Origin: Chloroflexota bacterium
GTDB taxonomy: Bacteria; Chloroflexota; Anaerolineae; VGOG01
Reading direction: 5' to 3'
NCBI GenBank assembly: GCA_030611885.1
Contig: JAUWOY010000036.1
Location: 1-33,075, forward strand
DNA: 33,075 nucleotides
The position numbers were made by a program, and so were the translations under genes. Of the stretch, positions 7,645 through 30,306 are shown piece after piece (the stretch's first letter is position 1; every line of letters starts with the position of its first letter). Under the pieces are notes generated by a model. It worked only from the letters and a program-made list of their open reading frames with translations. It was not told where the DNA came from and did no database searches.

Positions 7645-9243
7645 TCATTGGTGATTCTTGGTGAGTAGTGGCAGGAGAACGGGCTGAGGAGCTCCGGCGA
7701 GGAAGCTGTCCGACCATTCCTTGGTCAACTCCAGGTAAGTAAAACCGTGGCTATCGCCAGGCTCGATGTGGGTGTGCTCCCACCACTCGTTGAAGCTGGT
7801 GATGACGATCCAATCGGCCTGGGACTGAATGGCCGCCTGGAAAGTGAAGCCGTAAGTATCACCGCCAGCCCGATCGAGGTACCAGGAGCCAGGGCGGCCC
7901 AAGAGGGCATCATCGTAGCCGGGCATGACCGCTGGCGCCCAAATCTTCCGCTCAGCGTTTGGGTCTTGCAGAAATTGATAGCTCCTCACCCGGCCCGAAA
8001 CCGAAGCGTATACCTCAGGCATATCTGGGGCATAGAAGCCATAGGCGTGCAAGCCATCGAACACCTCCAGATAGCTGGGGTCAAAGGTCTGGCCGACCCA
8101 CACCGCATCGTAGCCATCGGCCTGGATTTGATCGAGTATGGCCTGCCAGGCCTGCAGAGGGGTTTGGCCGGGATTTCTGGCTACGTGGTCAACGGCGTAG
8201 AGAAAAATCACCGGCTTACCCCGATAGCGCAAAAAGTTGGGGTGACCGCTGTAAGAATCCAGGGCGTACTCCAATTGATGGATGACATCTTGAGTCGTCC
8301 TGAAACGCTCGCCCAGGGTCTCGAAGTAGATGGTCGCTTTGAAATCAGTGCCCTCCGCTGCCGTGAGGAGTTTGGCGAAGTTGGCATCCCGGTAGTTGCC
8401 CGAACCCCACCAGGAGGAGATGAAGCCGTGAATGCCATACTGCTGCGCCCAGTTGACGTGCCTGGTGATAGCCTCCAGGTCGTCGGAGCTGTGAGGAATA
8501 AGAGGGTGATCCTCGAGAACGGGGCTCGACCAGGAATCGAGATCATACCAGGGGTAGTAGAAGGCCAAAACCAATCTGGGCGAGACGTGCCGCAGAGGCA
8601 GAGGGCCACCGGTCGTGAAATGGGAATCGGCTATGGAGAAAGAGAAGGGATTAGAGGGGTCGTCCGGTTTGTCAAGCAGATTGGACCAGGAGGCGATGGC
8701 GGCGGCGGACGATGAGTTGTAGTTATAGAACTCCGCCGTGGTAAGGCCCAAATCGCCCTTCTGATTCTCGAAGAAAATGTGACTGCCGCCATCCAGGCCC
8801 GTCATCACCAAATCGTACTGAGCTTTGACCGTCTGGGCCACGGCCTCGGCCAGCGGCTGTTCTAAATAGAGCTCGTCCTCGTCCCACCCAACTCGAGTCG
8901 TCGCGGCGTGGCCCTGCAGGATGGTGGTTGTGACATAGAGGATTCGCTCCCCGCTGCGGACGTAGAGCCGCGTCCAATCGGAGGACGTGCTGAGCACTAT
9001 CCTGGCCCGATACAGCAGCGAATTGCCATCCCCCCTTCCCCCCAACTCTGGGGGGCTAGGGGGCTGAAGAGCAGGCGACCCCTCCACGCTCAGGGCTTGA
9101 GAGAACACCAGCACCCCCAGGCTTATCAGCAAAACCGCCAGGACAGTTTGGAAGTTGGAAGTTGGAAGTTGGAAGTTAGACGCTTGACGCTTGACGTTTG
9201 ACATTTGACGTTTAACATTTAGAGATAGTATAGCTTTCATCAT
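7645..9243 (-). CDS. Secreted two-domain protein with C-terminal TIM-barrel glycoside-hydrolase-like domain (GH99 / endo-alpha-mannosidase-like is my best guess), 532 aa
   Basis: Hydrophobic signal-like segment TVLAVLLISLGVLVFSQA. Motifs FYYPWYDLDSW, YGIHGFISSWWGSGNY and PAVMPGYDD resemble the YYPWY / SWWG motifs I recall for GH99-type hydrolases. Family assignment from memory only. The 5-prime end of the ORF contains the heptamer array 9148-9224. Confidence 0.45.
   Translation of the reverse strand: MMKAILSLNVKRQMSNVKRQASNFQLPTSNFQTVLAVLLISLGVLVFSQALSVEGSPALQPPSPPELGGRGDGNSLLYRARIVLSTSSDWTRLYVRSGERILYVTTTILQGHAATTRVGWDEDELYLEQPLAEAVAQTVKAQYDLVMTGLDGGSHIFFENQKGDLGLTTAEFYNYNSSSAAAIASWSNLLDKPDDPSNPFSFSIADSHFTTGGPLPLRHVSPRLVLAFYYPWYDLDSWSSPVLEDHPLIPHSSDDLEAITRHVNWAQQYGIHGFISSWWGSGNYRDANFAKLLTAAEGTDFKATIYFETLGERFRTTQDVIHQLEYALDSYSGHPNFLRYRGKPVIFLYAVDHVARNPGQTPLQAWQAILDQIQADGYDAVWVGQTFDPSYLEVFDGLHAYGFYAPDMPEVYASVSGRVRSYQFLQDPNAERKIWAPAVMPGYDDALLGRPGSWYLDRAGGDTYGFTFQAAIQSQADWIVITSFNEWWEHTHIEPGDSHGFTYLELTKEWSDSFLAGAPQPVLLPLLTKNHQ
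9148..9224. repeat. Array of 11 tandem heptanucleotide units (4 perfect TTGGAAG, then TTAGACG CTTGACG CTTGACG TTTGACA TTTGACG TTTAACA TTTAGAG) inside the 5-prime end of ORF 7645..9243
   Basis: Read directly from the sequence. AT-rich relative to surroundings. On the coding (minus) strand it encodes LNVKRQMSNVKRQASNFQLPTSNFQ, just ahead of the signal-peptide hydrophobic core. Confidence 0.85.
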
Positions 9244-9288
9244 AGCTTATCCTCCCCATATCGCTCTCTACCCTCCAGAATCATTGGC

Positions 9289-9389
9289 AGAAACCAGGTT
9301 TTTCGCTGTCGTTGTATGCTCGAAGATCTGGGCTGACCATGTAGTGCTGCAAGCGGAAGTCACTTTCCCAACGTAAAAACCTGGTTTCT
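9289..9389. repeat. Long-range inverted repeat (15-nt arms agaaaccaggttttt / aaaaacctggtttct, 71-nt spacer) spanning the folC stop codon
   Basis: Arms at 9289-9303 and 9375-9389 are perfectly complementary. The element lies between the folC 3-prime end and the 5-prime region of gene 7645..9243. Confidence 0.5.
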
Positions 9390-10911: not shown

Positions 10912-12159
10912 TTGAAATCCGCACCCCTATCCCTAGCATTAATAATCGTGTTGATCCTGGCAGGCCTAAACATGACCGGCTGCTCAGCCCGCCCTCTGCT
11001 CTACGACGTGGAGTTCTACCCGGAGGTAATCTCACCCAACGCCGACGGGCACGACGATGCCGCCAACATCCTCTACAAACTCTCCCGCAACGCCAGCCTG
11101 TCCATCTACTTCGTTGACCAAGCCGGGGAGCGGCATTACCATCGAAATGGAGAGCGACGTTCGGCCCAAGACGAGTCCTACTGGACCCTCTTTGGCGGCG
11201 TGGTGGACGTGGCCGAGAGCGGCCCGATCAGGAGGCGCATGATGCCCGATGGGCAGTACACCTGGGTCATTGAGGCTACCGACGACAGTGGCCACACCGA
11301 GAAGGCAGAGGGCAGCTTAACCATCGTTGACGCTGACACGGCCGTTCCTGAGATGCGGAACTTCAGCGTCTATCCCCAGGTCTTCACGCCCAATCAGGAC
11401 GGCATAGACGACCGGGTGGCCATCACCTTTTACCTGTCGAAAGAGGCCAAGTACCGAGTCTACCTGGAGGATGAGGAGGGCGACCGCTACCCCCTGGCCG
11501 AGAAAGAGAGAGAGGTAAAATCTGGCCAGCCCGGCATGCACATATACGACTACGAGGGTGGGGTGGATTTAGGGGCCACGCCGCCGCCAGATGGCATCTA
11601 CACCGTGGTGGCCGAGGCCGAGGACCTGGTGGGCAACAAGACAATGATAACCAGCACCCTGACCTTCATGGACGGTGGCGTCCCCCGGGCCGACATAGTC
11701 AACGCCGACGTGGACTTCGATCCCATGATCGTGCCCCTGGGAGGCACCCTGACCTTCACCGCTACCGTGGAGAACTTCGGCACAGTGCCCATCCGTACCA
11801 CAGGCCCCCCGCCGGGAACCACCTACGAGAGCGACCAGAACTTCAACAGCCTGGGATGGTACGAGGAGCCGGGAGCCTGGCGGTTGGGCATTGACTTCGA
11901 GACCAACTCCAGCGGGCGGCCCTATCCCTATCGCTTCGCCATCGGAGACGATGACGACCTGGAGATCAGAGTAATCAGAGGCAGGGAATACCGCTATCTG
12001 ATGCCGGGCCAGCGGGCCACCGTGACCGGCCACATCCACATCATGCAAGAGCCCCCTCGCAACCCCATCTACTTCTTCGCCGGCCTCATCCACGAGGACG
12101 TGAGGATTGACGCCTTCAACGACCACGTGGATCCTCAGGAGATATCTATTGGGTTTTAG
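10912..12159 (+). CDS. Secreted lipoprotein with two FlgD-Ig-like (F-x-P-N-x-DG-x-DD) domains, 415 aa
   Basis: Signal peptide with lipobox-like LNMTGC. Two repeats of the motif VEFYPEVISPNADGHDDAANILYKLS / FSVYPQVFTPNQDGIDDRVAITFYLS, which matches the FlgD Ig-like / T9SS-type beta-sandwich motif FSPNGDGxND. TTG start with a strong RBS. Confidence 0.55.
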   Translation: MKSAPLSLALIIVLILAGLNMTGCSARPLLYDVEFYPEVISPNADGHDDAANILYKLSRNASLSIYFVDQAGERHYHRNGERRSAQDESYWTLFGGVVDVAESGPIRRRMMPDGQYTWVIEATDDSGHTEKAEGSLTIVDADTAVPEMRNFSVYPQVFTPNQDGIDDRVAITFYLSKEAKYRVYLEDEEGDRYPLAEKEREVKSGQPGMHIYDYEGGVDLGATPPPDGIYTVVAEAEDLVGNKTMITSTLTFMDGGVPRADIVNADVDFDPMIVPLGGTLTFTATVENFGTVPIRTTGPPPGTTYESDQNFNSLGWYEEPGAWRLGIDFETNSSGRPYPYRFAIGDDDDLEIRVIRGREYRYLMPGQRATVTGHIHIMQEPPRNPIYFFAGLIHEDVRIDAFNDHVDPQEISIGF

Positions 12160-12596
12160 GGTCGCTGTGTGTAAATAGTACATGCGTTCGGTTTGAACAC
12201 TACCCCAAAATCGATATTTAGTCTAAACCCAAGAATTAAATCCCGGCCGTAGAACGTCGTCTGGTGCTCCAACTGGCAGGGGTACCTTAGAAGTGAGATA
12301 CGTTGCTGATGGCATTGGCATACCCACACAGCGCAAGTCGTAGGGCACGACAACTTGTTCAATCTCAACGTCAGCGAACCGATGGGTATTCACTCTACAA
12401 GGCGATCCGTGTTTGCCGTTAGAGGCATAGCGCTGAATTTTACATTTCGCGGGTTATGTATATAATAGAACTGGGACAGCCGGCCACACTGAAGACAGTG
12501 GACGCGAGTGGACACGCTGGTCAATTGGCTGGATCAAAGTTGTAAACGCCTATAGAAAGCACAACCAGTCATAGTTATGGATAGCGGGAGGGTAAA

Positions 12597-13490
12597 ATGC
12601 CAGTTCCACAGCGCGCTCGGATGATAGAATTTGACCAGGGCAGTCATGCATACTTTGCCTTTGTCAGGACGAGCTCCAGTCCAGAAGACATTATATCACA
12701 ACTAAACCTGGATCCGCTTCCAAAGGGAGTCATCTGGATTAGCGGTGGAGCCACAGATTTTCCTCTTGAGATCGTAGAGCCAACAGTTGCATTGATTGAG
12801 GCCGTGATCGTGCCCCTTGTGTACGAACATGATTTGCTGGTTGTTGATGGTGGTACAGAGGCTGGGATCATGAAGATTATTGGCGAGGTATTTGAAAGAG
12901 CTAAGTACCACAAGCTGAACATCATCGGTTATGAGGAAGACAAGCTCCAGGGACAGAACGCTAGATCCTGGGATCCCTTGCTGATGGGTTTTGTGCCTGA
13001 ACCGAAGGTCTCCTATCCCGGAGTTGATCGTTCGCCGCCGGACTATGCTCCGCTTGATCCCAACCATATCTACTTTGTCATGGTGCTCGATGCAAAAGAG
13101 TGGGGTCAGGAAGTTGAGTGTATGTTCTCGTTTCTGGGTTATTTGGCTACCCAGAGACAAATCCCAACCATTAACATTGTCGCTAATGGAGGGCGAGTCA
13201 CAATCAAAGAGGCCTATCATGCGGCACAACAAGGGCGACATGTAGTCGTTCTGGAAGGTAGCAAGAGAGCAGCCGAAGTCATTGTCGCTGCGCTAGATGG
13301 AGTATCTGACAGAACCTTGGTCAGTTTGCTCAGAGCATACGGGATTACAACACAGAGGCACGAGGTAGAAGAGACGGTTTACTGGCTCAATAGCATTGCC
13401 AAGTACGACAAGATTACGCGTTTTGATTTCTTATCACGGCCACCTGGGGAGTTGAGAGAAATCATTCTCTCTAAGATGGGCCTAGTGTGA
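12597..13490 (+). CDS. Standalone SLOG/LOG-like Rossmann-fold nucleotide-binding protein, 297 aa
   Basis: The motifs ISGGATDF, LLVVDGGTEAGIMKIIGE and IVANGGRVTIKEAY follow the LOG/SLOG pattern (GGxxG...GGxG...PGGxGTxxE). Assignment by motif memory, not by search. RBS GGGAGGG 4-5 nt upstream. Overlaps the next gene by 4 nt. Confidence 0.5.
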   Translation: MPVPQRARMIEFDQGSHAYFAFVRTSSSPEDIISQLNLDPLPKGVIWISGGATDFPLEIVEPTVALIEAVIVPLVYEHDLLVVDGGTEAGIMKIIGEVFERAKYHKLNIIGYEEDKLQGQNARSWDPLLMGFVPEPKVSYPGVDRSPPDYAPLDPNHIYFVMVLDAKEWGQEVECMFSFLGYLATQRQIPTINIVANGGRVTIKEAYHAAQQGRHVVVLEGSKRAAEVIVAALDGVSDRTLVSLLRAYGITTQRHEVEETVYWLNSIAKYDKITRFDFLSRPPGELREIILSKMGLV

Positions 13491-16402
13491 TTAAGACGGA
13501 CCGCGAGCACGGGAGGACACCAGATATGAATTCAGATGCATCAGATACGCCCAGAACACTTTTAGCATATTTTAGTCACAGCTACCGTCCCAGCGAGAAG
13601 GAGATTAATCTATTCTTCTGGGAATTGTTAAGCAAGCACAGCCTCTACTTCACAGTCGACTCCGAAGAGAATAGAGATAAGCCGATGGACATCTCCTACC
13701 TGGAGTGGATGATGCGACGCTGCGCATGTTTTGTAGCCGTCATTCCGCGCCGCGATGACTCACCGCCATATAACTGTTCTCCCTACCAGGTCTTTGAAAA
13801 CAGTCTGGCCATTCGCGCTAAGAAACCACGTTTGATCTTTGTCGAAGAAGGATTAGACGAAACCATCTTCGGCGTTCAACCTGAAGAAGTCTGTTCCTTT
13901 CGTCGAAGAAGAGAATTCCTTGAGGAAGGCAAAGACGATTTCATGAAGTTTGCGAGTCGGCTAGCTCAACGAGCGCATGCGCTTGCCACTCCAGATTTGG
14001 GCCTAAGGAAGCCAGTTACTCTGTTAGCAGACACCACACAAGGGTCGGCCTACCGTTCGGCTACAGTCAGAAGCATTCGCCAGATAGTGCGTGACCAAGG
14101 GTATTGGTTCCGAACTGTGAACCCCACAGACTTTGAACAGGATTCTTTGTTTCTGCGAACGATTGAAGGTTACAGTATATTGATCTCTGAAGTGCGGCAA
14201 CCTTACTTAGCGCCTGATGTGTTGGGGTTAGTGCATAGCCGATGCGTGCCCACAATTCGCATTTGCCATCTGGAAGAACATGAGAGCGTGGAAGAGGCAC
14301 AGGCAGCGATGCACTTACCGTTCAATGAGCACAAGTGGACTGATCAAGACCGCAGCAGCTGGCCGCTCATATTCAGCAAGTACCAGATTGACGATGATAT
14401 GGAACCAGTCATCTTTTGGAAACAGCCAGAGGAAATGCACGAGAAGGTCAGAGTGCGTTTAAGGAAAATCACCGAAAAACGTGTTGACCTGATCACAGAG
14501 CAAGAAGCACGCGGCTATTTCCTGCGCATAGGCCGCCTATCTGGCCAGATGTTCATCAGCAATGCCAAAGCGCAGAACGACTTCGTTGACAGGCTCAAGC
14601 ACAGCCTGCAGCGAAATGCAGTGGACTGGTTCCATTACAAAGATAAGGACGCAATCCCTATTGGATCGAGCGATTGGCTTTCCGAAATCATTATGGAGAT
14701 CCGGAACTCCACCATTTTTGTCGCCCTAGTTGACTCCAACTACACAGCAAGCGAGTGGTGCATAAGTGAGTTTAGAGAGGCAATGAATTTGTTTCGCAAT
14801 GGTGGCGAGATAGAGATTCATGCCTATGTGCTTGAGGATGGTGCCCAGTTGCCCGCAGAGTTGTCCATGATGCAGGTAGCCTATATCGAGACCTTGAACG
14901 ATACCAGTAGGATTGAGCGGATTGTGGAGAATGCAGTGGCGTTTCTGGAGACTGGAAAACAGGTCCGTTTGCGTCCCAGAGCCCGGACTCAGCTCGTGAA
15001 CTTATTGGCGAAGCTTCCATCGTTTGCTTCGTCCAATGAGCGTAGAACGCTTCTGCAGGACGCTGGATTACCGGCTCGAGTCCTCCAGAAAGTTCGAACA
15101 GAGGCGCAAACGAGTGCGAAAGCGGCTGCTGAGATTGTTGATGACCTAGCAGGATGGGAGCAAGAGCTCAAACTACGAACAAAAGCTCTTGGACTGCTTC
15201 TGTCACGCACAATGGGACTCGTAGATTCAATCGAGGAACAGATATTCTTGGCAGGCATGATCCGAGGCTATAGGCTCATGCCGGACATCAAGCTGCAGCT
15301 TGAAGCCCGTTCGCCTTTACGGGAGCTTGGCTTGGCCTACTTCCACGAGCGGAAGGAGTTAGGAACCTTCGAATCAATTCAAAAGGGATCTCTCGTGGAC
15401 CGCAAGCTGGATCAGCATGAACTCGATGCCAATTTGTATGCTCTATCAGTAAGATCCAGTGCCGAGCAAGACGATTGGCACAAGATGTTACGAATCATTG
15501 GGAAGGGCTTGTTTCACAACAATATCTTTGACGACCTCCTTGAGAATTATAAGAGAGCGTTGGACTCTCTCGGGATTCGCAACGAACAACTTGGGTTCTG
15601 CTTTGCCACTGATGCACCAGGACTGCGCATTCCATTTGAGTGGGCGGTTATTGAAGGTCAGAGGACTCCGTTGTGCTTAAGGCACCCTGTGCGGCGCTTC
15701 TTGGATGGATGTCCTGAACCCAGACCTACGTTACGCACACTGCTTGAAGGAGAAGTTGCCATTCCATTACGCGTGTTGTTGGTAGCCTCCAATACAGGTG
15801 GAATTCCAGAAGTGGAGAATGAAGTTGAAGAGCTCTACTCGATGCTTCGCGACTTGTTTCATCGGGTAGGATGGCCAGAATCCAACATTTGCAGACTGAA
15901 CTCTCAGACAGCCACGGTAGATAGTATTAAATGGCAAATCAGGCATGGGCATTATCATATTCTTCACTTTGCAGGCCACGGGGGCTATGATGATGAAAAG
16001 CCAGTTCTCCAAGTTTATCAAGATGCAAGTACGCAACAGATTGATCAGATCTCTGCAACCATGTTGAGAAGCTGGATCATTGATTCAGACCTCTGCTTCG
16101 TTTACTTGAGCAGTTGTCGCAGTGCATCCACAGAAGCCCTAGAATTAGCTAGTGCAATTCGATACTTTGAGAACGTTGGTCAAGCAATCGTTGAGGCCCG
16201 TGTACCTGAAGTAATCGGTTTTTTCTGGCCGATTGAAGACAATCAAAGCAGGATTCTGGCTACACGATTCTACGAGCAATTCCTGAAAAGCTTTGATGCA
16301 CCTCTGGCCCTATATCACGCGAGGAAGTCTTTTGAAGAAGAAAACCGCATCTGGGCAGCTCCAGTTTTGATTCAACAACTCGACACCCAAAAGAGAAGCT
16401 AG
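13487..16402 (+). CDS. Multidomain TIR(-like) / TIR / helical linker / CHAT caspase-like protease fusion protein, 971 aa
   Basis: Residues about 355-470 (MFISNAKAQNDFVDRLKHSLQRNAVDWFHYKDKD...SEIIMEIRNSTIFVALVDSNYTASEWCISEFREAM) form a canonical TIR domain, including the S-x-WC-x-x-E catalytic-glutamate region. Residues about 25-140 (LLAYFSHSYRP...CACFVAVIPRRDDSPPYNCSPYQVFENSLA) look like a second, more divergent TIR-like domain. The C-terminal about 240 aa have the CHAT His/Cys dyad context (YHILHFAGHGGYDDE ... DLCFVYLSSCRSAS). Confidence 0.7.
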   Translation: MIKTDREHGRTPDMNSDASDTPRTLLAYFSHSYRPSEKEINLFFWELLSKHSLYFTVDSEENRDKPMDISYLEWMMRRCACFVAVIPRRDDSPPYNCSPYQVFENSLAIRAKKPRLIFVEEGLDETIFGVQPEEVCSFRRRREFLEEGKDDFMKFASRLAQRAHALATPDLGLRKPVTLLADTTQGSAYRSATVRSIRQIVRDQGYWFRTVNPTDFEQDSLFLRTIEGYSILISEVRQPYLAPDVLGLVHSRCVPTIRICHLEEHESVEEAQAAMHLPFNEHKWTDQDRSSWPLIFSKYQIDDDMEPVIFWKQPEEMHEKVRVRLRKITEKRVDLITEQEARGYFLRIGRLSGQMFISNAKAQNDFVDRLKHSLQRNAVDWFHYKDKDAIPIGSSDWLSEIIMEIRNSTIFVALVDSNYTASEWCISEFREAMNLFRNGGEIEIHAYVLEDGAQLPAELSMMQVAYIETLNDTSRIERIVENAVAFLETGKQVRLRPRARTQLVNLLAKLPSFASSNERRTLLQDAGLPARVLQKVRTEAQTSAKAAAEIVDDLAGWEQELKLRTKALGLLLSRTMGLVDSIEEQIFLAGMIRGYRLMPDIKLQLEARSPLRELGLAYFHERKELGTFESIQKGSLVDRKLDQHELDANLYALSVRSSAEQDDWHKMLRIIGKGLFHNNIFDDLLENYKRALDSLGIRNEQLGFCFATDAPGLRIPFEWAVIEGQRTPLCLRHPVRRFLDGCPEPRPTLRTLLEGEVAIPLRVLLVASNTGGIPEVENEVEELYSMLRDLFHRVGWPESNICRLNSQTATVDSIKWQIRHGHYHILHFAGHGGYDDEKPVLQVYQDASTQQIDQISATMLRSWIIDSDLCFVYLSSCRSASTEALELASAIRYFENVGQAIVEARVPEVIGFFWPIEDNQSRILATRFYEQFLKSFDAPLALYHARKSFEEENRIWAAPVLIQQLDTQKRS

Positions 16403-16498: not shown

Positions 16499-17791
16499 AT
16501 GAAAAAACTAATCGCCCTTGGTGCCTTAGTTCTTGTAATCCTCTCTTACTTCCTGTTTGGGCTCACAGGGTTTGCAATTGGGGCGGCTATTATAGCCGTT
16601 GCTATTCTCTCCTATCGCCTCGCCCGTGAGCCAGGCTTGGCCCGTGCCATACTTCTTGTTACCCTTATCCTTTCATTTGTGATTGGCGGTTTTGTGATCA
16701 GAACTTGGGGACCAAAGCCGACTGGAATCACTAAAGCTGAGGAGATCGCCTTCTTCGTTATCGGAGGGGCGATGGGGCTTATATCCTGGCTATCGGTGCT
16801 CCTTTCTGCATTCTTCTTATGCTCCGAGATAATTCTTGTTTCTCATGGAGGTGATAGGTGGGGATCTTTTGCCTACCTGGTAAGTTCCTTGTTGCTTGAG
16901 CGTGCGGGGGCTCTTGAGATCGTAGATAGAGGTGAAGTGATAACCATAAAATCGAGAGGCTTGCTCGCTCCCTTTAAAGCGATCGGATACGTGATTATCT
17001 ATCATGGAAATGCTGTTGTCTTTGAACGCTTCGGTCGCCTCAGCCAAGTGGCGGGGCCCGGTCTTGTGGTGAAGAGGTCTTTCGAAACGATACGAGCGGT
17101 CGTTGATTTGAGCATGCAAGTGGAGGAAAGAAGGCAAACACTTGTTACCAGAGATGGAATCCCATTGACCACCTATGTAAAAATACTCTTCCAAATAGAT
17201 TCTGGGGGGCGTGCCCCTACGCCTGATGACATGTTTCCACTTTCCGAACCAGCAGTGCTCAATGCAGTATACCTTGTGCCGGATTGGAAGGCATATACCG
17301 TTGAAACGGCCCTTGCCTTGCTCCGCGATATGATATGCACACATTATCTCGACGACGTCTACGCCCCCTTGAAGAAGGGTTCTCGTAAAAGGGCAGGCCT
17401 AGGAACCCATGCACAACTCCTCCAAGATAACCTGCAAACTTCCTTGAGTGCCACAGCGATCGCGTGGGGGGTGAGAATTCACCGGGTGGAACTTGGCATC
17501 GCGGCGCCGCAGGAAATCGAGGAACAAGCCCTGGCCTTCGAAAAGGCGAGAAAAGAGGAGGAACTCGAATACCAAAGATCCAGAGCTGAGAACCGCCGGA
17601 TTAAGCAATTTGTCTCGCAGACTGGAGGAGATGTCACTGATTATGCTCTCCTCCGCTATCTTGAAAGGATTGGGGAATCCGGCATCCTTCCGCCCTCATT
17701 AGACCGGATGCTCCTTGACGCCATGGAAAAGGGAATGTCACGGCCACAGGGGCAAAAGAAGATCAAGGCCAGTGAGGAGGAGGCGGATTGA
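16499..17791 (+). CDS. Membrane protein with N-terminal 4-TM region and SPFH/band-7 (stomatin/flotillin/HflK-like) domain plus C-terminal coiled-coil, 430 aa
   Basis: Four hydrophobic helices in the first about 120 aa. The SPFH core is IVDRGEVITIKSRG...AVVFERFGRLSQVAGPGLVVKRSFETIRAVVDLSMQVEERRQTLVTRDGIPLTTYVKILFQI. Charged helical tail. RBS GGGAGG before the ATG. Confidence 0.6.
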   Translation: MKKLIALGALVLVILSYFLFGLTGFAIGAAIIAVAILSYRLAREPGLARAILLVTLILSFVIGGFVIRTWGPKPTGITKAEEIAFFVIGGAMGLISWLSVLLSAFFLCSEIILVSHGGDRWGSFAYLVSSLLLERAGALEIVDRGEVITIKSRGLLAPFKAIGYVIIYHGNAVVFERFGRLSQVAGPGLVVKRSFETIRAVVDLSMQVEERRQTLVTRDGIPLTTYVKILFQIDSGGRAPTPDDMFPLSEPAVLNAVYLVPDWKAYTVETALALLRDMICTHYLDDVYAPLKKGSRKRAGLGTHAQLLQDNLQTSLSATAIAWGVRIHRVELGIAAPQEIEEQALAFEKARKEEELEYQRSRAENRRIKQFVSQTGGDVTDYALLRYLERIGESGILPPSLDRMLLDAMEKGMSRPQGQKKIKASEEEAD

Positions 17792-17824
17792 CTATCGCTT
17801 CCTCAATATAAGGAAAAGCATGAA

Positions 17825-17856
17825 GCCCCTGTCGCCTCGACAGGGGCTTGCCTTTT
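17825..17856 (+). terminator. Rho-independent terminator after the SPFH gene
   Basis: Perfect 10-bp stem gcccctgtcg / cgacaggggc (loop cctc) followed by ttgccttttg. Confidence 0.65.
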
Positions 17857-19349: not shown

Positions 19350-20110
19350 TGAAGAAGAAGCCGAAGCTAACCGCCATCATCCTCACCAAGAACGAGGAGA
19401 AGAATATCGCCGACTGCATCGCCAGCGTGCAATGGGCCGATGAGGTGGTGGTCTTCGACTCCTTCAGCCAGGATAGGACAGCGGAGATTGCGCGAGAGGC
19501 GGGAGCGACGGTTTTCCAGCACCCGTTCCGGAACTTCGCCCGACAGCGCAACGCCGCCCTGGATGCCGTTGATAGCGACTGGGTCTTCTTCGTTGACGCC
19601 GACGAGCGAGCCACGCCGGAGCTGGCCACCGAGACACGTCGCGTCATCCAGGACGAATCGCAATCCGGCTGGTGGGTTCCACGCCACAATTATATCTTCG
19701 GCCGAGTGATCCGCCACGCCGGCTGGTACCCCGACTATCAACTGCGCCTCCTGCGGCACGGCAAGGCCCGCTACGATCCCCAGCGGGAAGTCCACGAGAT
19801 TGTCATCCTGGACGGCGAGGAGGGGTATCTGGAGAATCCCCTGATCCACTACAACTACGACACCCTGGCTCAATTTGTCGAGAGGCAGAACCGCTACACT
19901 GATTACGAGGCCAGTATCCTCTTCGACCAGGACGTCCGCCCCAGGCCCCACAACTTCATCTTGCAGCCCCTCAGGGAGTTCAGGCGGCGCTACGTCTCGC
20001 TGGAGGGCTACAAGGACGGCTTTCACGGGCTGCTCTTGAGCCTCTTGATGGCCTACTACACTTTGGTGATGTACCTGCGCTTGAGGCGGTTGTGGCAAGA
20101 CAAATCTTGA
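19346..20110 (+). CDS. GT2-family glycosyltransferase (KdtX/WaaE-like), 254 aa
   Basis: KLTAIILTKNEEKNIADCIASVQWADEVVVFDSFSQDRTAEIARE ... VDADE matches the small LPS-core GT2 family. Overlaps the upstream gene by 4 nt. Confidence 0.75.
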   Translation: MMKKKPKLTAIILTKNEEKNIADCIASVQWADEVVVFDSFSQDRTAEIAREAGATVFQHPFRNFARQRNAALDAVDSDWVFFVDADERATPELATETRRVIQDESQSGWWVPRHNYIFGRVIRHAGWYPDYQLRLLRHGKARYDPQREVHEIVILDGEEGYLENPLIHYNYDTLAQFVERQNRYTDYEASILFDQDVRPRPHNFILQPLREFRRRYVSLEGYKDGFHGLLLSLLMAYYTLVMYLRLRRLWQDKS

Positions 20111-20135
20111 CCTAATTGGAAGGTTGTGTTATAAT
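20107..20135 (+). promoter_or_regulatory. Near-consensus sigma70 promoter (-35 TTGACC, 17-nt spacer, -10 TATAAT)
   Basis: ttgacc at 20107-20112 and tataat at 20130-20135. GTG start of the HNH gene at 20160. Confidence 0.6.
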
Positions 20136-20159
20136 CGGCCATAGATTTGAGAACCAGAG

Positions 20160-20684
20160 GTGTTACGATTGAAAGCCCTGTTAGATGCTCCCGTTCTTGT
20201 CCTCAACTTAAACTACGAGCCGCTGAACGTCTGCAACGTCAAGAGGGCTATGGTCTTGATCGTGGTGGGCAAGGCCGACGTTTTGGAGAACAGCCGGGGG
20301 GTCATCCGTACCCCTTCCACCACCTTCCTGTGCCCCTCGGTGATAAAGCTAATCTACATGATCAAGCGGCCTCGCCCCCGGGTGAAGCTCACCAAGAAAG
20401 AGATCTTCCGGCGAGATAACTACACCTGCCAATATTGTGGCCGACAATCAAAGAACTTGACCGTGGATCACATCGTTCCACGCCACAATGGGGGACAGCA
20501 CCATTGGGAAAACCTGGTGAGCGCGTGCCCGGCCTGCAATCATCGAAAGGGCAGCCGTACTCTCCGAGAGGCCCACATGCGGTTGCTGCAGCGTCCCTAC
20601 GAGCCCCGCGCCACCAGCAGTTACCTCTTTGGCCGATACTTGAAAGAAAACGAGGAGTGGCAAGGGTTTATAGAGGGTTGGTGA
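20160..20684 (+). CDS. HNH endonuclease-family protein, 174 aa
   Basis: YTCQYCGRQSKNLTVDHIVPRHNGGQHHWENLVSACPACNHRKG is a classic HNH motif with zinc-ligand cysteines. Confidence 0.75.
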   Translation: MLRLKALLDAPVLVLNLNYEPLNVCNVKRAMVLIVVGKADVLENSRGVIRTPSTTFLCPSVIKLIYMIKRPRPRVKLTKKEIFRRDNYTCQYCGRQSKNLTVDHIVPRHNGGQHHWENLVSACPACNHRKGSRTLREAHMRLLQRPYEPRATSSYLFGRYLKENEEWQGFIEGW

Positions 20685-20702
20685 CAATAGAAAATGAGAA
20701 AA

Positions 20703-20735
20703 GGGGAGTCCGCCAGCGGACTCCCCTTTAACTTT
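20703..20735. terminator. Rho-independent terminator (10-bp stem ggggagtccg / cggactcccc, then tttaactttt)
   Basis: An A-tract upstream and a T-tract downstream make it usable bidirectionally. It follows the HNH gene. Confidence 0.75.
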
Positions 20736-20764
20736 TCTGAAGTGGACATTCACCTTTTGCTCGC

Positions 20765-20824
20765 GACGGACACTAGTCCGTCGTCCAAAGAGGCGGAAAA
20801 AGCTGCTGGACTAGCGTCCAGCAG
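20765..20824. terminator. Two further hairpins (cgacggac-acta-gtccgtcg at 20765-20784; ctgctggac-tagc-gtccagcag at 20803-20824), the latter the terminator of the minus-strand PTP gene
   Basis: The 9-bp perfect stem at 20803-20824 is followed, on the minus strand, by ctttttccgcc. Both hairpins share a GGAC-N-TAG-N-GTCC core. Confidence 0.6.
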
Positions 20825-20843
20825 GAGCAGGTCTTTAGCCGAC

Positions 20844-21305
20844 TCAGCCCACCAACTGCATGATGCGCGGATAGCCCTCCTCGATTAGCCTTTCGATCTC
20901 GGCGGCGCATTGGCGATATTCATACAAAGGGCTCCCGTAGGGATCACGTATGTCGTAATGCCGCCCGATCATCTCGCTCAGCAAATGGACTTTGTGAGCG
21001 TGTGGGGGGAACTCCAGGCTGATGGCCTCGGCCTGCCCGCGCTCCATGGTCAGGATGAGATCAGCTCCCTCCAAGTCCTGCGGGGTGAGGTCGTGGCTGC
21101 GGTGGTCGCTGATGTCAATGCCTCGCTCCTCCATCATTTCGCGACTGTAGGCCGAGGGCGGTTGGCTCTCCAGCCCCCACACGCCCGCCGAGTGTACTCT
21201 GTACTCTCCCTCCAATCCCGCTCTACGCAGCTTCTCCTGCAGGAACCCCATCGCCATAGGCGAACGGCAGATGTTGCCCGTGCAGACGAACAGTATGGTC
21301 TTCAT
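20844..21305 (-). CDS. Low-molecular-weight protein tyrosine phosphatase family protein, 153 aa
   Basis: N-terminal P-loop ILFVCTGNICRSPMAMG (CX5R) and a DP motif. An ArsC-like arsenate reductase of the same fold cannot be excluded. Confidence 0.75.
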   Translation of the reverse strand: MKTILFVCTGNICRSPMAMGFLQEKLRRAGLEGEYRVHSAGVWGLESQPPSAYSREMMEERGIDISDHRSHDLTPQDLEGADLILTMERGQAEAISLEFPPHAHKVHLLSEMIGRHYDIRDPYGSPLYEYRQCAAEIERLIEEGYPRIMQLVG

Positions 21306-21323
21306 CTACTTTTTGTTCGGCGT

Positions 21324-21860
21324 CTACGCCAGCTCCGGCTCAAGCAGCCCGTAGTTGCCGTCCTTGCGCCGATAAATGACGTTCATCCCGTTGGCGTCAA
21401 CGTTGAAGAAAATGAAGAAGTCGTGGCCCAAGAGCTCCATCTGCTCAATGGCCTCTTCTTCATCCATGGGAGCCACCTGGAAACGCTTAGTCCTGACGAT
21501 GCGGGGTGGCTCTTCCTCCTCGAACTCCTCCACCGGCGGCATCTCACCTGGGCCGCGACCTCGGCCATAACGTTTGCCCTTGTAGCGAACGATCTGGCGG
21601 TACATCTTATCCACGATGGCGTCAATGGAGGCGAACATGTCAGCGGTTCTCTCCTCGGCTCGCAAAAACGTGCCCTTGCTCCGCACTGTCAACTGCGCCA
21701 CCTGGCGATCCTTCGCGCTCTTGGCGCCCTCGACAGAGAGCTCTATCCGCGCCTCGGTTATGGTGGGCAAATAGCGGTCCAGCTTGCCCACTTTCTTCTC
21801 AATGTACTCCTGTAAGCGATCGGTAACTTCCATGTTCTTGCCCTGGATGATCAACTGCAT
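21324..21860 (-). CDS. hpf: Ribosome hibernation-promoting factor, long form, 178 aa
   Basis: MQLIIQGKNMEVTDRLQEYIEKKVGKLDRYLP...ARIELSVE is the S30AE/RaiA N-domain, with the long-HPF C-terminal dimerisation domain (FFIFFNVDANGMNVIYRRKDGNYGLLEP). Confidence 0.9.
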   Translation of the reverse strand: MQLIIQGKNMEVTDRLQEYIEKKVGKLDRYLPTITEARIELSVEGAKSAKDRQVAQLTVRSKGTFLRAEERTADMFASIDAIVDKMYRQIVRYKGKRYGRGRGPGEMPPVEEFEEEEPPRIVRTKRFQVAPMDEEEAIEQMELLGHDFFIFFNVDANGMNVIYRRKDGNYGLLEPELA

Positions 21861-21901
21861 TTGACATCTCCTTTCATTAGTCAGTTATTGTTAGAACTCA
21901 A

Positions 21902-21945
21902 TGGAGTGCGGACGCAAGTCCGCCAGCAGGCTTGCGCCTGCACTC
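21902..21945. other. Compact three-way structured element (7-bp outer stem ggagtgc/gcactcc enclosing two hairpins ggac-gcaa-gtcc and gcaggc-ttgc-gcctgc) between the comF stop and hpf start
   Basis: Pairings read directly from the sequence. The position fits a comF terminator and/or an hpf 5-prime UTR element. Confidence 0.45.
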
Positions 21946-21959
21946 CGGAACCTAAATCC

Positions 21960-22664
21960 TCATCTGGCCCTGGCTAATGTGAAGGCCCAGACGGAACGAG
22001 CACCAACCTGCCGCAAGGCGATGCTACAAGCCTCCAACGTGGCTCCGGTGGTGCAAACATCGTCAATCAGCAGGATCCGCTTTTCCTTCAACTCGGCGTT
22101 TGAGCAGCGGAAAGCGTCACGAACGTTCTCCTTGCGCTCCTGAGCACCCAATTCTACCTGGGGACGAGTGGCCCGCACGCGCGCCAAACTGTTCTCTGCG
22201 ACAGGCAGCCCGATGCTTTTCCCCAACTCTCTGGCCAGGAGGGTTGCCTGGTTGTAGCCACGCTCGCGCAGTCGGTCTGGGTGCAAAGGCACGGGGACGA
22301 TGATTTCAGCAGGAAGGGGGCTGTTCTCCCAATAGTCGCCCATCAACTGGCCCAAGGGGATGGCCAGATCCTGCAGATTGTAGTACTTAAAGTGGTGAAT
22401 GGCTTCGCGCAAAGTTCCATCAAAGTAGGCCACAGCACGAATGCCGTCTATTCGCAGAGGGTCGCGTTGACAAAGGGGACAGAGGCGACCATTGGACCTG
22501 GGGCGACCACAGCGGGGGCAGAGGGGCGGTTCAATCAACTCGAACTCATCAAGGCACTTGGCACAGAGTACACTCCCTCTCTCGCGACAGCTTACGCAGC
22601 GGGGAGGGAACAGCAAATCCAGGAGACCTCTTTTGATTTCCTGCACCAAATCTATAGCGGTCAA
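21960..22664 (-). CDS. comF: ComF-family protein (phosphoribosyltransferase-domain competence protein ComFC/GntX-like), 234 aa
   Basis: N-terminal double Cys pair zinc finger (CVSCRERGSVLCAKC ... CPRCGRP...CPLCQ) and a C-terminal PRTase motif ILLIDDVCTTGATL. Confidence 0.8.
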   Translation of the reverse strand: MTAIDLVQEIKRGLLDLLFPPRCVSCRERGSVLCAKCLDEFELIEPPLCPRCGRPRSNGRLCPLCQRDPLRIDGIRAVAYFDGTLREAIHHFKYYNLQDLAIPLGQLMGDYWENSPLPAEIIVPVPLHPDRLRERGYNQATLLARELGKSIGLPVAENSLARVRATRPQVELGAQERKENVRDAFRCSNAELKEKRILLIDDVCTTGATLEACSIALRQVGARSVWAFTLARAR

Positions 22665-22784
22665 GTTACCCCTGGCCTGCTAAGCTTTCGAGCCTATAAA
22701 CTCAGTATATCCAAGATTTCCAGCAAAGGCGGCTCCCATGCCTGTCCTGAGCACTTCGACTGCGCTCAGTGTAAACTCCGCCGA

Positions 22785-22830
22785 AGGGCCGCCGGTTCGC
22801 GGGCGTGGGAGCCCGCTCTGCTCAGAATTT
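22785..22830. repeat. Copy 1 of a dispersed ~38-bp GC-rich repeat (gccgccggttcgcgggcgtgggagcccgctctgctcag); the inverted copy lies within the hairpin at 30857-30912
   Basis: The 38-nt core matches the reverse complement of 30859-30896 exactly. Both copies lie in intergenic regions. Confidence 0.8.
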
Positions 22831-22893
22831 GGATCTACTGAAACTGGGAAAAAGCAGGGAGTGCCACGTCGTCGAGTGCACGGAGACGACGAG

Positions 22894-23046
22894 TCAACTG
22901 ATGAAGTTAAGAAATTGGTTTAATAAGTCGTAGATCTTATCCCACAGCAACAGCAAGATGGCGATTACGACTATAGCTACCAAAACTATGATCAGGGCAT
23001 ACTCAATGAGCCCTTGTCCTTCTTCACGCGACAGAAATGGTATCAC
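22894..23046 (-). CDS. flp: Flp/Fap-family type IVb pilin prepeptide (50 aa); absent from the ORF track because under 60 aa
   Basis: The minus strand reads GGAGG, 6 nt, then GTG. The translation is VIPFLSREEGQGLIEYALIIVLVAIVVIAILLLLWDKIYDLLNQFLNFIS. The G-x4-EY motif followed by a hydrophobic helix is the Flp pilin signature. Confidence 0.5.
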   Translation of the reverse strand: MIPFLSREEGQGLIEYALIIVLVAIVVIAILLLLWDKIYDLLNQFLNFIS

Positions 23047-23119
23047 CTCTCGACCTCCTATTCAGGTGGTAAAGGATACGCTGCTTATTATACACCATAG
23101 TCGGATTCAGCGCAAAAAG

Positions 23120-23148: not shown

Positions 23149-23183
23149 GTATGGTATTTGTATCTGCCACCGGGGGAGGAACG

Positions 23184-24396: not shown

Positions 24397-24404
24397 ACGG
24401 TGAT

Positions 24405-30304: not shown

Positions 30305-30306
30305 CG

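What the first reader, a model, noticed from the sequence alone, without database searches (positions are those of the whole stretch)
13487..16402. 971-aa protein with tandem TIR-like + canonical TIR domains fused to a C-terminal CHAT caspase-like protease
The second TIR (about res 355-470) is textbook, including the S-x-WC-x-x-E segment carrying the NADase catalytic glutamate. An N-terminal region (about res 25-140) has the same beta-alpha order and a C-S-P-Y-Q-V-F-E stretch resembling a degenerate second TIR. The C-terminus has the CHAT signature histidine (ILHFAGHG) and cysteine (VYLSSCRS). TIR-protease fusions echo the protease partners of bacterial gasdermins and Craspase (TPR-CHAT), but here the sensor and enzyme modules are TIRs. 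Whether the TIRs produce a signal that gates the protease in cis, or the protease processes a neighbouring protein such as SLOG or SPFH, is open.
Basis: partly seen in the sequence, partly recalled or inferred. Interest (0 to 1): 0.8.

Follow-up and report, generated by a model that had tools for sequence, protein, structure and literature searches.

The report
Fused TIR–CHAT protease immune gene with SLOG partner
This is a real, rare bacterial gene pair in which a nucleotide-binding SLOG protein is coupled to one large protein joining two TIR-type NAD-cleaving domains, an adaptor domain and a caspase-like CHAT protease; it looks like an unstudied variant of the known TIR-to-protease anti-virus immune systems.

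Summary
ORF 13487-16402 is real; the true start is probably ATG 13526 (958 aa).

N1-N2-TIR is a rare, fixed core: 274 of 1.84 billion representative clusters. Its C-terminal slot varies: CHAT, caspase C14, a second TIR, PNP nucleosidase, STAND.

The LSDAT-type SLOG gene lies directly upstream in all 13 loci of this clade, whichever effector is present, and is fused to the core in one protein. More distant relatives carry a small RyR-domain gene instead (8 loci); none has both. Both domain families bind or process ADP-ribose-derived nucleotides.

SPFH shares the island's base composition but is present in only 2 of 13 loci, as non-orthologous copies, so it is accessory or incidental.

Best reading: a Thoeris-like TIR-nucleotide immune system with inverted wiring. 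The effector is fused to the TIR protein, and the nucleotide-binding partner stands alone as a regulator. SLOG as a protease substrate is unlikely.

I call it a new variant of a known kind. All function is inferred.

The parts
12439..12466 (+). Promoter-like site (TTTACA-16-TATAAT, 11 of 12) in the 437-nt low-GC leader upstream of the SLOG gene
   Evidence: sequence. A consensus match only. No Rfam family in the leader.
12597..13490 (+). Standalone LSDAT-type SLOG protein, 297 aa. RBS GGGAGGG lies 6 nt upstream. Gly-rich nucleotide-binding motifs SGGA, DGGT..G, ANGG..T..E and EGS.RA are conserved.
   Evidence: Pfam LSDAT_prok 1.2e-30. Motif conservation in the 8 full-length partner SLOGs aligned. 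Only 24 homologues in 5.8 billion sequences, all standalone. Directly upstream of the module gene in 13 loci.
13526..16402 (+). Multidomain TIR-CHAT protein. The probable start is ATG 13526 (958 aa); the mechanical ORF begins at GTG 13487 (971 aa). Residue numbers in this report use the 971-aa ORF.
   Evidence: Full-length AlphaFold model pLDDT 89, pTM 0.73.
13559..13984 (+). N1 (res ~25-166): divergent TIR-like domain. Invariant H31, S32, Y33, N41, E73, R89, S98, E104; the E104 codon is 13796-13798.
14015..14524 (+). N2 (res ~177-346): second alpha/beta (flavodoxin-like) domain with few conserved residues and no conserved acidic residue. Its affinity is unknown.
   Evidence: AlphaFold secondary structure. 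hhalign to TIR or N1 is not significant.
14549..14953 (+). Canonical TIR domain (res ~355-489). Catalytic E428 is codon 14768-14770, within S422-x-W424-C425-x-x-E428.
   Evidence: Pfam TIR_2 2.1e-13. E428 and S422 invariant in 68/68. PDB sequence hit to Cat1 TIR, 4.9e-5. Foldseek hits to plant and animal TIRs.
14975..15268 (+). EAD8 (effector-associated domain 8), res ~497-594, predicted as a six-helix bundle.
   Evidence: Pfam EAD8 1.1e-7, 32.8 bits against a cut-off of 27. Helices in the model. L007 shows a core-EAD8 gene followed by an EAD8-Trypsin_2 gene. Adaptor role as proposed in PMC7159879.
15320..16375 (+). CHAT caspase-like protease: an N-terminal beta/helical sub-domain (res ~612-693) and the catalytic core (res ~702-963). 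H831 is codon 15977-15979 and C877 is codon 16115-16117.
   Evidence: Pfam CHAT 4.4e-16. H831 20/20, C877 19/20. Alignment to 8TL0, HILHFIGHG / VVLNAC. Foldseek hits to Csx29, SAVED-CHAT, DdvA and separase.
16499..17791 (+). Membrane-anchored SPFH/Band-7 protein, 430 aa, with a hydrophobic N-terminus (three long hydrophobic stretches within res 1-118). Same base composition as the two genes above. An optional or incidental member.
   Evidence: Pfam Band_7 2.5e-8. Hydropathy and GC3 0.517 against 0.70-0.83 for confidently assigned flanking genes. Present in 2 of 13 loci. 43 homologues, up to 87% identical, on contigs without CHAT or SLOG.
17823..17849 (.). 12-bp GC-rich palindromic hairpin with T-runs on both strands, 32 nt after the SPFH stop codon. 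Likely a bidirectional terminator closing the three-gene unit.

Best explanation
A Thoeris-like, TIR-nucleotide-based conflict (most likely anti-phage, abortive-infection) system with inverted wiring. In classical Thoeris, a separate TIR protein makes an ADP-ribose-derived signal, and an effector carrying its own SLOG or Macro sensor reads it. Here the effector (the CHAT protease) is fused to the TIR protein, and the nucleotide-binding domain (an LSDAT-type SLOG) is a separate small protein.

Proposed steps:
1. Inferred: a trigger is sensed by the conserved N1-N2-TIR core, which assembles.
2. Supported only by intact catalytic residues: the TIR (E428), and possibly the TIR-like N1 (E104), cleave NAD+ into an ADP-ribose-type nucleotide.
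3. Inferred from conserved gene pairing, one gene fusion and the SLOG/RyR alternation: the SLOG partner binds or processes that nucleotide and so tunes the system. I favour a threshold-setting or reset role (a sponge or hydrolase that prevents self-activation) over an obligatory activator.
4. Inferred: once the threshold is passed, clustering of the protein, helped by homotypic EAD8 contacts, activates the CHAT His831/Cys877 protease. It cleaves cellular or viral proteins and arrests the cell.

SPFH is not a core part.
For: Architecture and intact active sites.

N1-N2-TIR is a fixed core and the C-terminus behaves as an effector slot:
- All 70 long representatives have TIR_2; 20 have PNP_UDP_1, 17 CHAT, 1 C14, 1 Trypsin_2, 1 STAND.
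- Some members carry a second TIR instead.
- L007 splits the design into core-EAD8 plus EAD8-trypsin, as the EAD coupling principle predicts.

SLOG is a dedicated partner of the core:
- It lies -3 to 333 nt upstream, on the same strand, in all 13 loci of this clade, whatever the effector (EAD8-CHAT, CHAT, C14, TIR, EAD8-TIR).
- Only 24 SLOG homologues exist, and at least 14 are on contigs that also carry a module protein: 12 by matching contig length and 2 confirmed by look-up.
- It is fused to the core in P0026.

Partner alternation: eight SLOG-less loci carry a small RyR-domain gene next to the module, and no locus has both.

Both partner families handle ADPR-derived nucleotides:
- LSDAT corresponds to TRPM MHR1/2, which forms the ADPR site of TRPM2 (PMC13143021).
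- SLOG is the 3'cADPR sensor of type I Thoeris.
- RyR-domain proteins cleave or sequester 2'/3'cADPR (PMC13232231).

The partner is absent from many complete relatives, which fits a tuner better than an essential activator.

Defence context: SLATT+TIR pairs, ThsB_TIR, an MmeI-type RM gene, STAND, STALD and patatin flank the homologues. In the window there is a low-GC island and a Cas7x3/Cas6 locus 8 kb away.

Precedent for TIR signal to caspase-like protease: type IV Thoeris (10.1101/2024.10.24.620036).
Against: - No biochemical or phage data exist for any member; every functional step is inferred.
- PADLOC does not recognise the system; the only hits are weak ThsB/TIR matches.
- Because the effector is fused to the TIR protein, no diffusible signal is strictly needed. 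Activation could be purely conformational or oligomeric, with the TIR acting as a scaffold or as an NAD+-depleting effector.
- The sign of SLOG's effect (brake or activator) is not determined by any result here. The SLOG-first gene order fits either.
- EAD8 is missing from some CHAT forms (L006, P0019, P0020, P0023), so EAD8 clustering cannot be universally required.
- I could not inspect model coordinates, so the domain contacts (N1-TIR, TIR-CHAT) are unknown.
- RyR precedents come from phage proteins that inhibit signalling. Extending them to host-encoded RyR genes is an extrapolation.
Confidence: 0.5

Rival explanations
1. SLOG is a positive receptor, as in classical Thoeris but in trans. 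The TIR core makes a nucleotide signal. The standalone SLOG binds it, changes oligomeric state, and docks onto the TIR-effector protein to switch on CHAT (or C14, or the second TIR).
For: SLOG is the activating sensor in type I Thoeris, and the homologous TRPM2 MHR1/2 opens the channel on ADPR binding. Strict SLOG-core pairing and one fusion. The nucleotide-binding motifs are intact.
Against: Many complete relatives with the same core and fused effectors have no SLOG (PNP, STAND and EAD8-only forms). RyR-domain genes take the partner's place, and their only shown activities are to degrade or sequester signals. SLOG has no recognisable docking or adaptor domain, such as a matching EAD8.
Confidence: 0.25
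2. No signalling at all. The TIR domains are NAD+-depleting effectors or oligomerisation scaffolds, and CHAT is a second effector activated by proximity, like an inflammasome or apoptosome. SLOG would be an upstream sensor of a foreign or stress nucleotide, or an antitoxin-like inhibitor that binds the protein.
For: Effectors are fused in cis, so no messenger is needed. EAD8 is a predicted homotypic adaptor compared in the literature with Death-fold domains. Double-TIR forms exist. The SLOG-first, tightly linked gene order resembles antitoxin-toxin pairs.
Against: Two unrelated ADPR-nucleotide-handling domains alternate as partners (SLOG or RyR). That is hard to explain if no ADPR-derived nucleotide is involved. 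The strict conservation of a second Glu-bearing TIR-like domain (N1) suggests specialised chemistry rather than bulk NAD+ depletion.
Confidence: 0.15
3. One reading: CHAT's job is to cleave the neighbouring SLOG or SPFH protein, releasing a toxic or membrane-active fragment, as in gasdermin or Csx30-type pro-effectors.
For: CHAT and caspase-like proteases in Craspase, SAVED-CHAT cascades and gasdermin operons cleave operon-encoded targets. In the window SPFH is co-oriented, shares the island's composition and lies inside the promoter-terminator unit. A TM-SPFH gene lies directly downstream in two loci as non-orthologous copies (27% identity), which hints at repeated recruitment.
Against: SLOG is kept with TIR-TIR forms that have no protease. 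SLOG shows no variable pro-peptide-like extension. SPFH is absent from 11 of 13 loci. Its 43 homologues, most of them close (up to 87% identity), lie on contigs without the system.
Confidence: 0.07
4. The system is not anti-phage. It could be a regulated-proteolysis or programmed-cell-death module of filamentous Chloroflexota, for example CHAT acting like the DdvA anti-sigma factor or in kin or developmental control.
For: The hosts are Chloroflexota/Anaerolineae MAGs. EAD-type systems are reported to be enriched in multicellular prokaryotes (PMC7159879). DdvA is a structural hit. The window's immediate flanks are cell-envelope genes.
Against: Patchy, rare distribution, atypical composition and defence-island neighbours point to a mobile conflict system. 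The protein has no transmembrane or anti-sigma parts.
Confidence: 0.03

Closest known systems
Type IV Thoeris (ThsB TIR + ThsE caspase-like protease; signal N7-cADPR)
   Same: It couples a catalytic TIR domain to a clan-CD (caspase-type His/Cys) protease in a compact bacterial operon. The presumed output is proteolysis-driven abortive infection.
   Different: In type IV the TIR and the protease are separate proteins, and the protease is thought to read the signal through its own C-terminal domain. Here they are one polypeptide, the protease is of the CHAT family, there are two extra N-terminal domains (TIR-like N1, and N2) and an EAD8, and a standalone LSDAT SLOG protein is the conserved partner. 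PADLOC gives no match beyond weak ThsB hits.
Type I and type III Thoeris (TIR proteins + SLOG-containing effectors)
   Same: A TIR-plus-SLOG gene partnership. In type I, SLOG is the known receptor of a TIR-made cADPR isomer.
   Different: In these systems SLOG is fused to the effector (SIR2 in type I). It is described as STALD-type in types I/II and SMF/DprA-type in type III. Here SLOG is LSDAT-type, standalone, and the effector sits on the TIR protein. No LSDAT, CHAT or EAD8 term appears in the text or supplements of the 2025 TIR survey that annotated 29 putative Thoeris types.
SAVED-CHAT (PDB 8TL0) and Csx29 TPR-CHAT of Craspase (type III CRISPR)
   Same: These are the best structural and sequence matches for the protease part, with the same HxxGHG and C motifs. 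They are nucleotide- or RNA-gated immune CHAT proteases.
   Different: Their regulatory module is SAVED (cyclic oligoadenylate) or TPR plus Cas7-11. Here it is N1-N2-TIR-EAD8. Orthologous loci have no cas genes. The Cas7x3/Cas6 genes in this window are 8 kb away, across glycosyltransferase genes.
EAD-coupled conflict systems (Kaur, Burroughs, Iyer and Aravind 2020/2021)
   Same: It contains EAD8. Relatives follow the EAD principle (core-EAD8 followed by EAD8-trypsin in L007). TIR, caspase, trypsin, PNP and STAND form the same effector vocabulary. P0026 links the core to a SAV_2336 N-terminal domain.
   Different: This locus has no MoxR-vWA, GTPase or STAND core. EAD8 is internal to a single polypeptide with no second EAD8 gene nearby. 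The N1-N2 module and the LSDAT/RyR partners are not described in the held papers.
Phage RyDEP RyR-domain proteins and the TRPM2 MHR1/2 (LSDAT) domain
   Same: These are the two domain families that alternate as partners of the N1-N2-TIR core. They bind or cleave ADPR or cADPR isomers.
   Different: Those are viral counter-defence proteins and an animal ion-channel domain. Here the genes are host-encoded and operon-linked to a TIR protein.

Membership tests
TIR domain (Pfam TIR_2 / TIR), enzymatic class | Significant match to the TIR HMM above the curated cut-off | tested here: met
   TIR_2 51.3 bits against 28; TIR 28.7 bits against 21.3.
TIR domain (Pfam TIR_2 / TIR), enzymatic class | Conserved catalytic glutamate in the alpha-C helix (S-x-W-C-x-x-E context) | tested here: met
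   E428 is invariant in 68/68 homologues. It aligns within the TIR matches to Cat1, L6 and SNC1.
TIR domain (Pfam TIR_2 / TIR), enzymatic class | NAD+ cleavage or cyclase activity | not testable with these tools
   Needs an enzyme assay.
TIR-like status of N1 (res 25-166) | Detectable homology to TIR, with the catalytic Glu position kept | tested here: met
CHAT / clan CD caspase-like peptidase | HMM match above the cut-off, and a caspase-hemoglobinase fold | tested here: met
   CHAT 59.6 bits against 24. Foldseek hits to Csx29 1.3e-8, SAVED-CHAT 9e-7, separase.
CHAT / clan CD caspase-like peptidase | Catalytic His-Cys dyad | tested here: met
   H831 20/20 and C877 19/20. They align to HILHFIGHG and VVLNAC of 8TL0.
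Type IV Thoeris | Two separate genes: a ThsB TIR and a ThsE caspase-like effector that carries its own sensor domain | tested here: not met
   TIR and protease are in one ORF. The protease is CHAT, not a ThsE-type caspase. There is no PADLOC system hit.
Type IV Thoeris | The signal is N7-cADPR | not testable with these tools
   Needs metabolite analysis.
Thoeris in the broad sense (TIR signal generator + signal-activated effector) | The effector protein carries the ligand-sensing domain and is separate from the TIR protein | tested here: not met
   The effector is fused to the TIR protein, and SLOG is a standalone protein of 217-356 aa in all 24 homologues.
Thoeris in the broad sense (TIR signal generator + signal-activated effector) | Protects against phage | not testable with these tools
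   There is only contextual support from defence-island neighbours.
Craspase / type III-E (Cas7-11 + Csx29 TPR-CHAT) | A TPR-CHAT protease genetically linked to a giant multi-Cas7 protein | tested here: not met
   No TPR was detected. Orthologous loci lack cas genes. The window's Cas7x3/Cas6 genes are 8 kb away.
EAD-coupled systems (EAD principle) | An EAD domain on the core, with a matching EAD on a separately encoded effector | tested here: inconclusive
   EAD8 is present above the cut-off. There is no second EAD8 gene in the window. The principle is met in the relative L007.
LSDAT_prok SLOG (neighbour gene) | HMM match above the cut-off and conserved Gly-rich nucleotide-binding loops | tested here: met
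   106.7 bits against 25.4. Motifs are conserved in the aligned partner SLOGs. Ligand binding itself is not testable here.

The most novel reading that the evidence does not exclude
The N1-N2-TIR core is a previously unrecognised TIR signalling engine with two Glu-bearing TIR-type domains in one chain. Its ADPR-derived product is read or buffered by one of two interchangeable small partners, an LSDAT-SLOG or an RyR-domain protein. These are the bacterial counterparts of the (c)ADPR-linked modules of the animal Ca2+ channels TRPM2 and RyR. The system would then be both a new Thoeris-like type with host-encoded signal regulators gating a fused CHAT protease, and a common bacterial-immunity origin for the nucleotide-sensing domains of two animal channel families.
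Probability: 0.25. Interest if true: 0.85.

Novelty: new variant of a known kind. Interest (0 to 1): 0.62.

Why it matters
TIR-to-protease signalling (type IV Thoeris) and CHAT proteases (Craspase, SAVED-CHAT) are recent highlights of bacterial immunity with clear echoes in animal and plant cell death. This family offers several things:
- **A new wiring.** The effector is fused to the TIR protein and the nucleotide-binding protein stands alone. That separates signal handling from effector activation and can be tested with three or four recombinant proteins.
- **A conserved, uncharacterised module.** In N1-N2, N1 keeps a TIR-like catalytic Glu, so it may have new NAD+ chemistry or ligand sensing.
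- **A natural swap of partners.** LSDAT-SLOG and RyR-domain partners alternate. This links the ADPR-binding module of TRPM2 and the cADPR-linked R12 repeat of ryanodine receptors to one bacterial system.
- **A possible self-contained protease switch**, if nucleotide gating is confirmed.

The family is very rare (274 of 1.84 billion representative clusters), which may explain why surveys have not reported it.

Tried and rejected
- **Pfam, NCBIfam and PADLOC on the N-terminal 340 residues:** no hits in any of 20 members scanned. Structure prediction and profile-profile comparison were needed.
- **N2 as a third TIR:** rejected on sequence (hhalign 2%).
- **The search for related loci with the 68-sequence alignment:** failed because no stretch was conserved enough. 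I repeated it with the 20 CHAT-type sequences.
- **My first MIDCHAT query:** translated out of frame, which gave spurious ORF hits. Corrected.
- **Early idea that SLOG is specific to the protease forms, and therefore a substrate:** rejected after SLOG was found with TIR-TIR forms.
- **SPFH as a core component:** rejected.
- **A Craspase-like link to the nearby Cas7x3 gene:** rejected, because homologous loci have no cas genes.
- **Mobile-element borders:** no tRNA, no convincing flanking repeats, no Rfam family.
- **Literature:** Burroughs et al. 2015 (NAR), which defined LSDAT, and van den Berg et al. 2024 (type III Thoeris) are not held. I cannot exclude that the LSDAT-TIR gene pairing was already noted there.
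- **Source names or host for the window's proteins:** none on record.

Full report

Yes. The + strand ORF 13487-16402 is open for 971 codons from a GTG. The physiological start is almost certainly the ATG at 13526 (958 aa):
- A GGGAGGA Shine-Dalgarno sequence lies 8 nt upstream.
- The database copy of this protein (P0001) starts there.
- The orthologues align from that methionine.

Pfam gives CHAT (res 767-962, E 4.4e-16), TIR_2 (356-470, E 2.1e-13) and TIR (E 1.4e-6). The quoted motifs sit where stated.

The catalytic residues are conserved. TIR E428 and S422 are invariant in 68 of 68 homologues. CHAT H831 is kept in 20 of 20 and C877 in 19 of 20 CHAT-type homologues. The His and Cys motifs align to HILHFIGHG and VVLNAC of the solved SAVED-CHAT protease 8TL0.

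A full-length AlphaFold model (pLDDT 89, pTM 0.73) finds Csx29, SAVED-CHAT, the CHAT anti-sigma factor DdvA and separase, followed by many TIR structures.

**2. The N-terminal 340 residues**

No Pfam, NCBIfam or PADLOC model detects anything here in any family member. An AlphaFold model of res 14-351, built on 68 sequences, is confident (pLDDT 90.4, pTM 0.89). It shows two successive beta-alpha-beta-alpha-beta-alpha-beta domains, N1 (res ~25-166) and N2 (~177-346).

The decisive test was profile-profile comparison with broad, de-duplicated profiles:
- N1 against the internal TIRs: 87.5% probability, E 3.6e-6.
- N1 against independent C-terminal or standalone TIRs: 91.7% probability, E 7.6e-7.
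- The first alignment runs from the strand-A motif (YFSHS against FISNA) to the S..x..E helix; the second begins just after that motif and also reaches the helix. Both put E104 on the TIR catalytic Glu.

N1 is the most conserved part of the whole family. H31, S32, Y33, N41, E73, R89, S98 and E104 are invariant. It is therefore a divergent but probably functional TIR-type domain, not a decayed copy.

N2 has the same general topology but no significant similarity to TIR or N1, and no conserved acidic residue. Its affinity is unknown.

**3. The family and its modular logic**

A word-indexed search found 71 relatives. An exhaustive phmmer scan of 1.84 billion cluster representatives with N1-N2 found only 274 hits at E <= 0.001, and 160 at E <= 1e-10. 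Among species-representative genomes, only four loci were recovered. The two full-length CHAT forms are in Chloroflexota MAGs.

All 70 long representatives carry N1-N2 followed by a TIR. What follows the TIR varies: PNP_UDP_1 in 20, CHAT in 17, and caspase C14, trypsin and STAND in one each. Other members carry a second TIR.

In L007 the design is split. A core-EAD8 protein is followed by an EAD8-trypsin protein. This is the 'EAD coupling' pattern proposed by Kaur et al., in which homotypic EAD contacts recruit effectors.

A separate ~510-aa family joins N1-N2 directly to a weakly transglutaminase-like Cys-peptidase-type domain, with no TIR.

So N1-N2-TIR behaves as a core, and the C-terminus behaves as an exchangeable effector slot. 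In this window the slot is filled by EAD8-CHAT.

**4. The neighbours**

In the window, three co-oriented genes share GC3 of 0.51-0.52, against 0.70-0.83 for the confidently assigned flanking genes:
- SLOG, 12597-13490
- the TIR-CHAT gene
- SPFH, 16499-17791

They are bracketed by an 11-of-12 promoter-like site (12439-12466) and a 12-bp GC-rich palindromic hairpin (17823-17849). I found no tRNA, flanking repeats or Rfam elements.

Comparative data separate the two neighbours sharply.

*SLOG.* It is LSDAT-type (Pfam 1.2e-30). It lies -3 to 333 nt upstream, on the same strand, in all 13 loci of the clade closest to the window. This holds whether the effector is EAD8-CHAT, CHAT alone, caspase C14, a second TIR or EAD8-TIR. 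Only 24 homologues of this SLOG exist in 5.8 billion sequences. All are standalone, and at least 14 lie on contigs that also carry a module protein: 12 by matching contig length and 2 confirmed by look-up. In P0026 the SLOG is fused C-terminally to the core, behind a SAV_2336-type N-terminal domain. Its Gly-rich nucleotide-binding motifs are conserved.

*SPFH.* It occurs in only 2 of the 13 loci. The two copies are 27% identical, although the adjacent CHAT proteins are 63% and the SLOG proteins 59% identical. The window's SPFH has 43 homologues, most of them close (up to 87% identity), in Anaerolineae-type assemblies. None is on a contig whose length matches a CHAT or SLOG contig. I therefore treat SPFH as accessory or incidental. 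Two independent TM-SPFH genes at the same position remain a mild hint of recruitment.

**5. An unexpected alternation**

The more distant, SLOG-less relatives often carry a small RyR-domain gene (95-125 aa; Pfam RyR 2.8e-33) next to the module. It overlaps or abuts the module's stop codon in L030 and L031. It is within 1.5 kb in L008, L013, L014, L021 and L032. In L017, the only CHAT-type locus without SLOG, it lies upstream. That makes eight distinct loci, and no locus has both partners.

Both domain families are tied to ADP-ribose-derived nucleotides:
- LSDAT is the bacterial counterpart of TRPM MHR1/2, which forms an ADPR site in TRPM2.
- SLOG is the 3'cADPR receptor of type I Thoeris.
- A 2026 preprint shows that phage RyR-domain proteins cleave or sequester 2'/3'cADPR. 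That study covers viral proteins only.

This alternation is the strongest, though indirect, argument that the core's TIR chemistry yields an ADPR-type nucleotide that the small partner binds or processes.

**6. Mechanism**

Shown here:
- intact TIR and CHAT catalytic residues
- a second TIR-like domain with a conserved Glu
- an EAD8 adaptor domain
- obligate SLOG pairing and one fusion
- the SLOG/RyR alternation
- defence-island neighbours in other genomes: SLATT+TIR pairs, ThsB_TIR, an MmeI-type RM gene, STAND, STALD and patatin

Inferred: the core senses a trigger and assembles, the TIR(s) convert NAD+ into a nucleotide, SLOG tunes that signal, and the CHAT protease is switched on, helped by EAD8 clustering, to arrest the cell.

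I favour SLOG as a threshold or reset regulator, for three reasons. Many complete relatives lack any partner. The alternative partner family is known only to degrade or sequester signals. SLOG has no adaptor domain with which to dock. A positive-receptor role is the main rival (0.25).

Two points weaken my model. EAD8 is absent from some CHAT forms, so clustering through EAD8 cannot be universal. A fused effector does not strictly need a diffusible messenger.

The idea that CHAT processes SLOG is disfavoured, because SLOG persists with TIR-TIR forms that have no protease.

**7. Comparison with known systems**

The system works most like type IV Thoeris (a TIR signal activating a caspase-like protease) and like SAVED-CHAT or Craspase (ligand-gated CHAT). 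It fails the membership tests for each:
- The TIR and the protease are one protein.
- The protease is CHAT rather than ThsE.
- There is no SAVED or TPR domain, and the orthologous loci have no cas genes.
- SLOG is LSDAT-type and standalone. It is not a STALD- or DprA-type SLOG fused to an effector.

The 2025 survey that annotated 29 putative Thoeris types contains no mention of LSDAT, CHAT, EAD8 or Band_7 in its text or supplements. A term search for TIR-CHAT or CHAT-TIR found nothing. The 2015 paper that defined LSDAT is not held, so an earlier computational note of LSDAT-TIR operons cannot be excluded.

**8. Verdict**

The feature is real and the architecture is confirmed and extended. It is a new variant of a known kind: a Thoeris-like TIR-protease system with inverted wiring and a previously undescribed N1-N2 module. 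Function is entirely inferred. Interest is moderate to high.

Noticed in passing
window 24462-27737 (+), 27721-28599 (+), 28568-29593 (+), 23151-24248 (+): A 1091-aa protein with three Cas7/Csm3-like RAMP domains (PADLOC Cas7_IIId 1e-25, Csm3 2e-25, gRAMP 5e-17). It is followed by an unassigned 292-aa ORF and a Cas6, and preceded by an RtcA RNA 3'-phosphate cyclase. No Cas10 and no CRISPR array were seen in 20000-33075. This looks like a fused multi-Cas7 type III-D/III-E-like locus, and it deserves its own analysis.
   Followed up: partly
L030:4728-5105, L031:10056-10376, L032:3222-3521, L021:2775-3446, L014:10863-11180, L013:10923-11210, L008:7215-7514(-), L017:845-1186: Host-encoded small RyR-domain genes sit next to N1-N2-TIR module genes in eight SLOG-less loci and never together with SLOG. 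RyR-domain proteins have so far been characterised only as phage anti-Thoeris cADPR glycosidases or sponges (PMC13232231).
   Followed up: partly
L043-L061 (e.g. L050:1747-3288, L044:4740-6329, L055:637-2151): A separate ~510-aa protein family joins N1-N2 (with the YFSHSYR and SPY...E motifs intact) directly to a C-terminal domain with a CGTCID...H motif. That domain matches the transglutaminase-like DUF553 only weakly (E 0.008-0.015). There is no TIR domain.
   Followed up: partly
P0026 (1326 aa, Logan contig of 7409 nt): A single polypeptide SAV_2336_NTERM (NF041121, E 2.6e-132) - N1 - N2 - TIR - LSDAT SLOG. It ties this core to the SAV_2336 N-terminal domain family. From memory only, and not checked here, that family belongs to the iSTAND/MoxR-vWA-type conflict proteins.
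   Followed up: partly
window 21960-22664 (-): A 234-aa ORF matches the PADLOC PsyrT (1e-16) and ShosT (2e-11) phosphoribosyltransferase-like toxin models. It may be a defence gene or an ordinary ComF/PRTase-type gene.
   Followed up: no
window 10912-12159 (+): The ORF directly upstream of the island has a CHU_C type IX secretion signal domain hit (6e-9). This is unexpected for a contig whose other affinities are Chloroflexota/Anaerolineae. Its high GC3 (0.79) marks it as host-like.
   Followed up: no
window 31446-31694: Imperfect 24-31 nt direct repeats rich in CCCACC. They are most likely a Pro/Thr-rich low-complexity coding stretch, not a CRISPR array.
   Followed up: no
L066:4905-5753 and 6001-6882; L064:4777-5946 and 8931-9383; L010:2970-3804: Some SLOG-module loci carry a second LSDAT gene in tandem (L066). 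Some have adjacent SLATT + small TIR/ThsB_TIR gene pairs (L064, L010; L066 has SLATT_3, STALD and nSTAND1). These may be separate Thoeris-like systems in the same island, or extra components.
   Followed up: no
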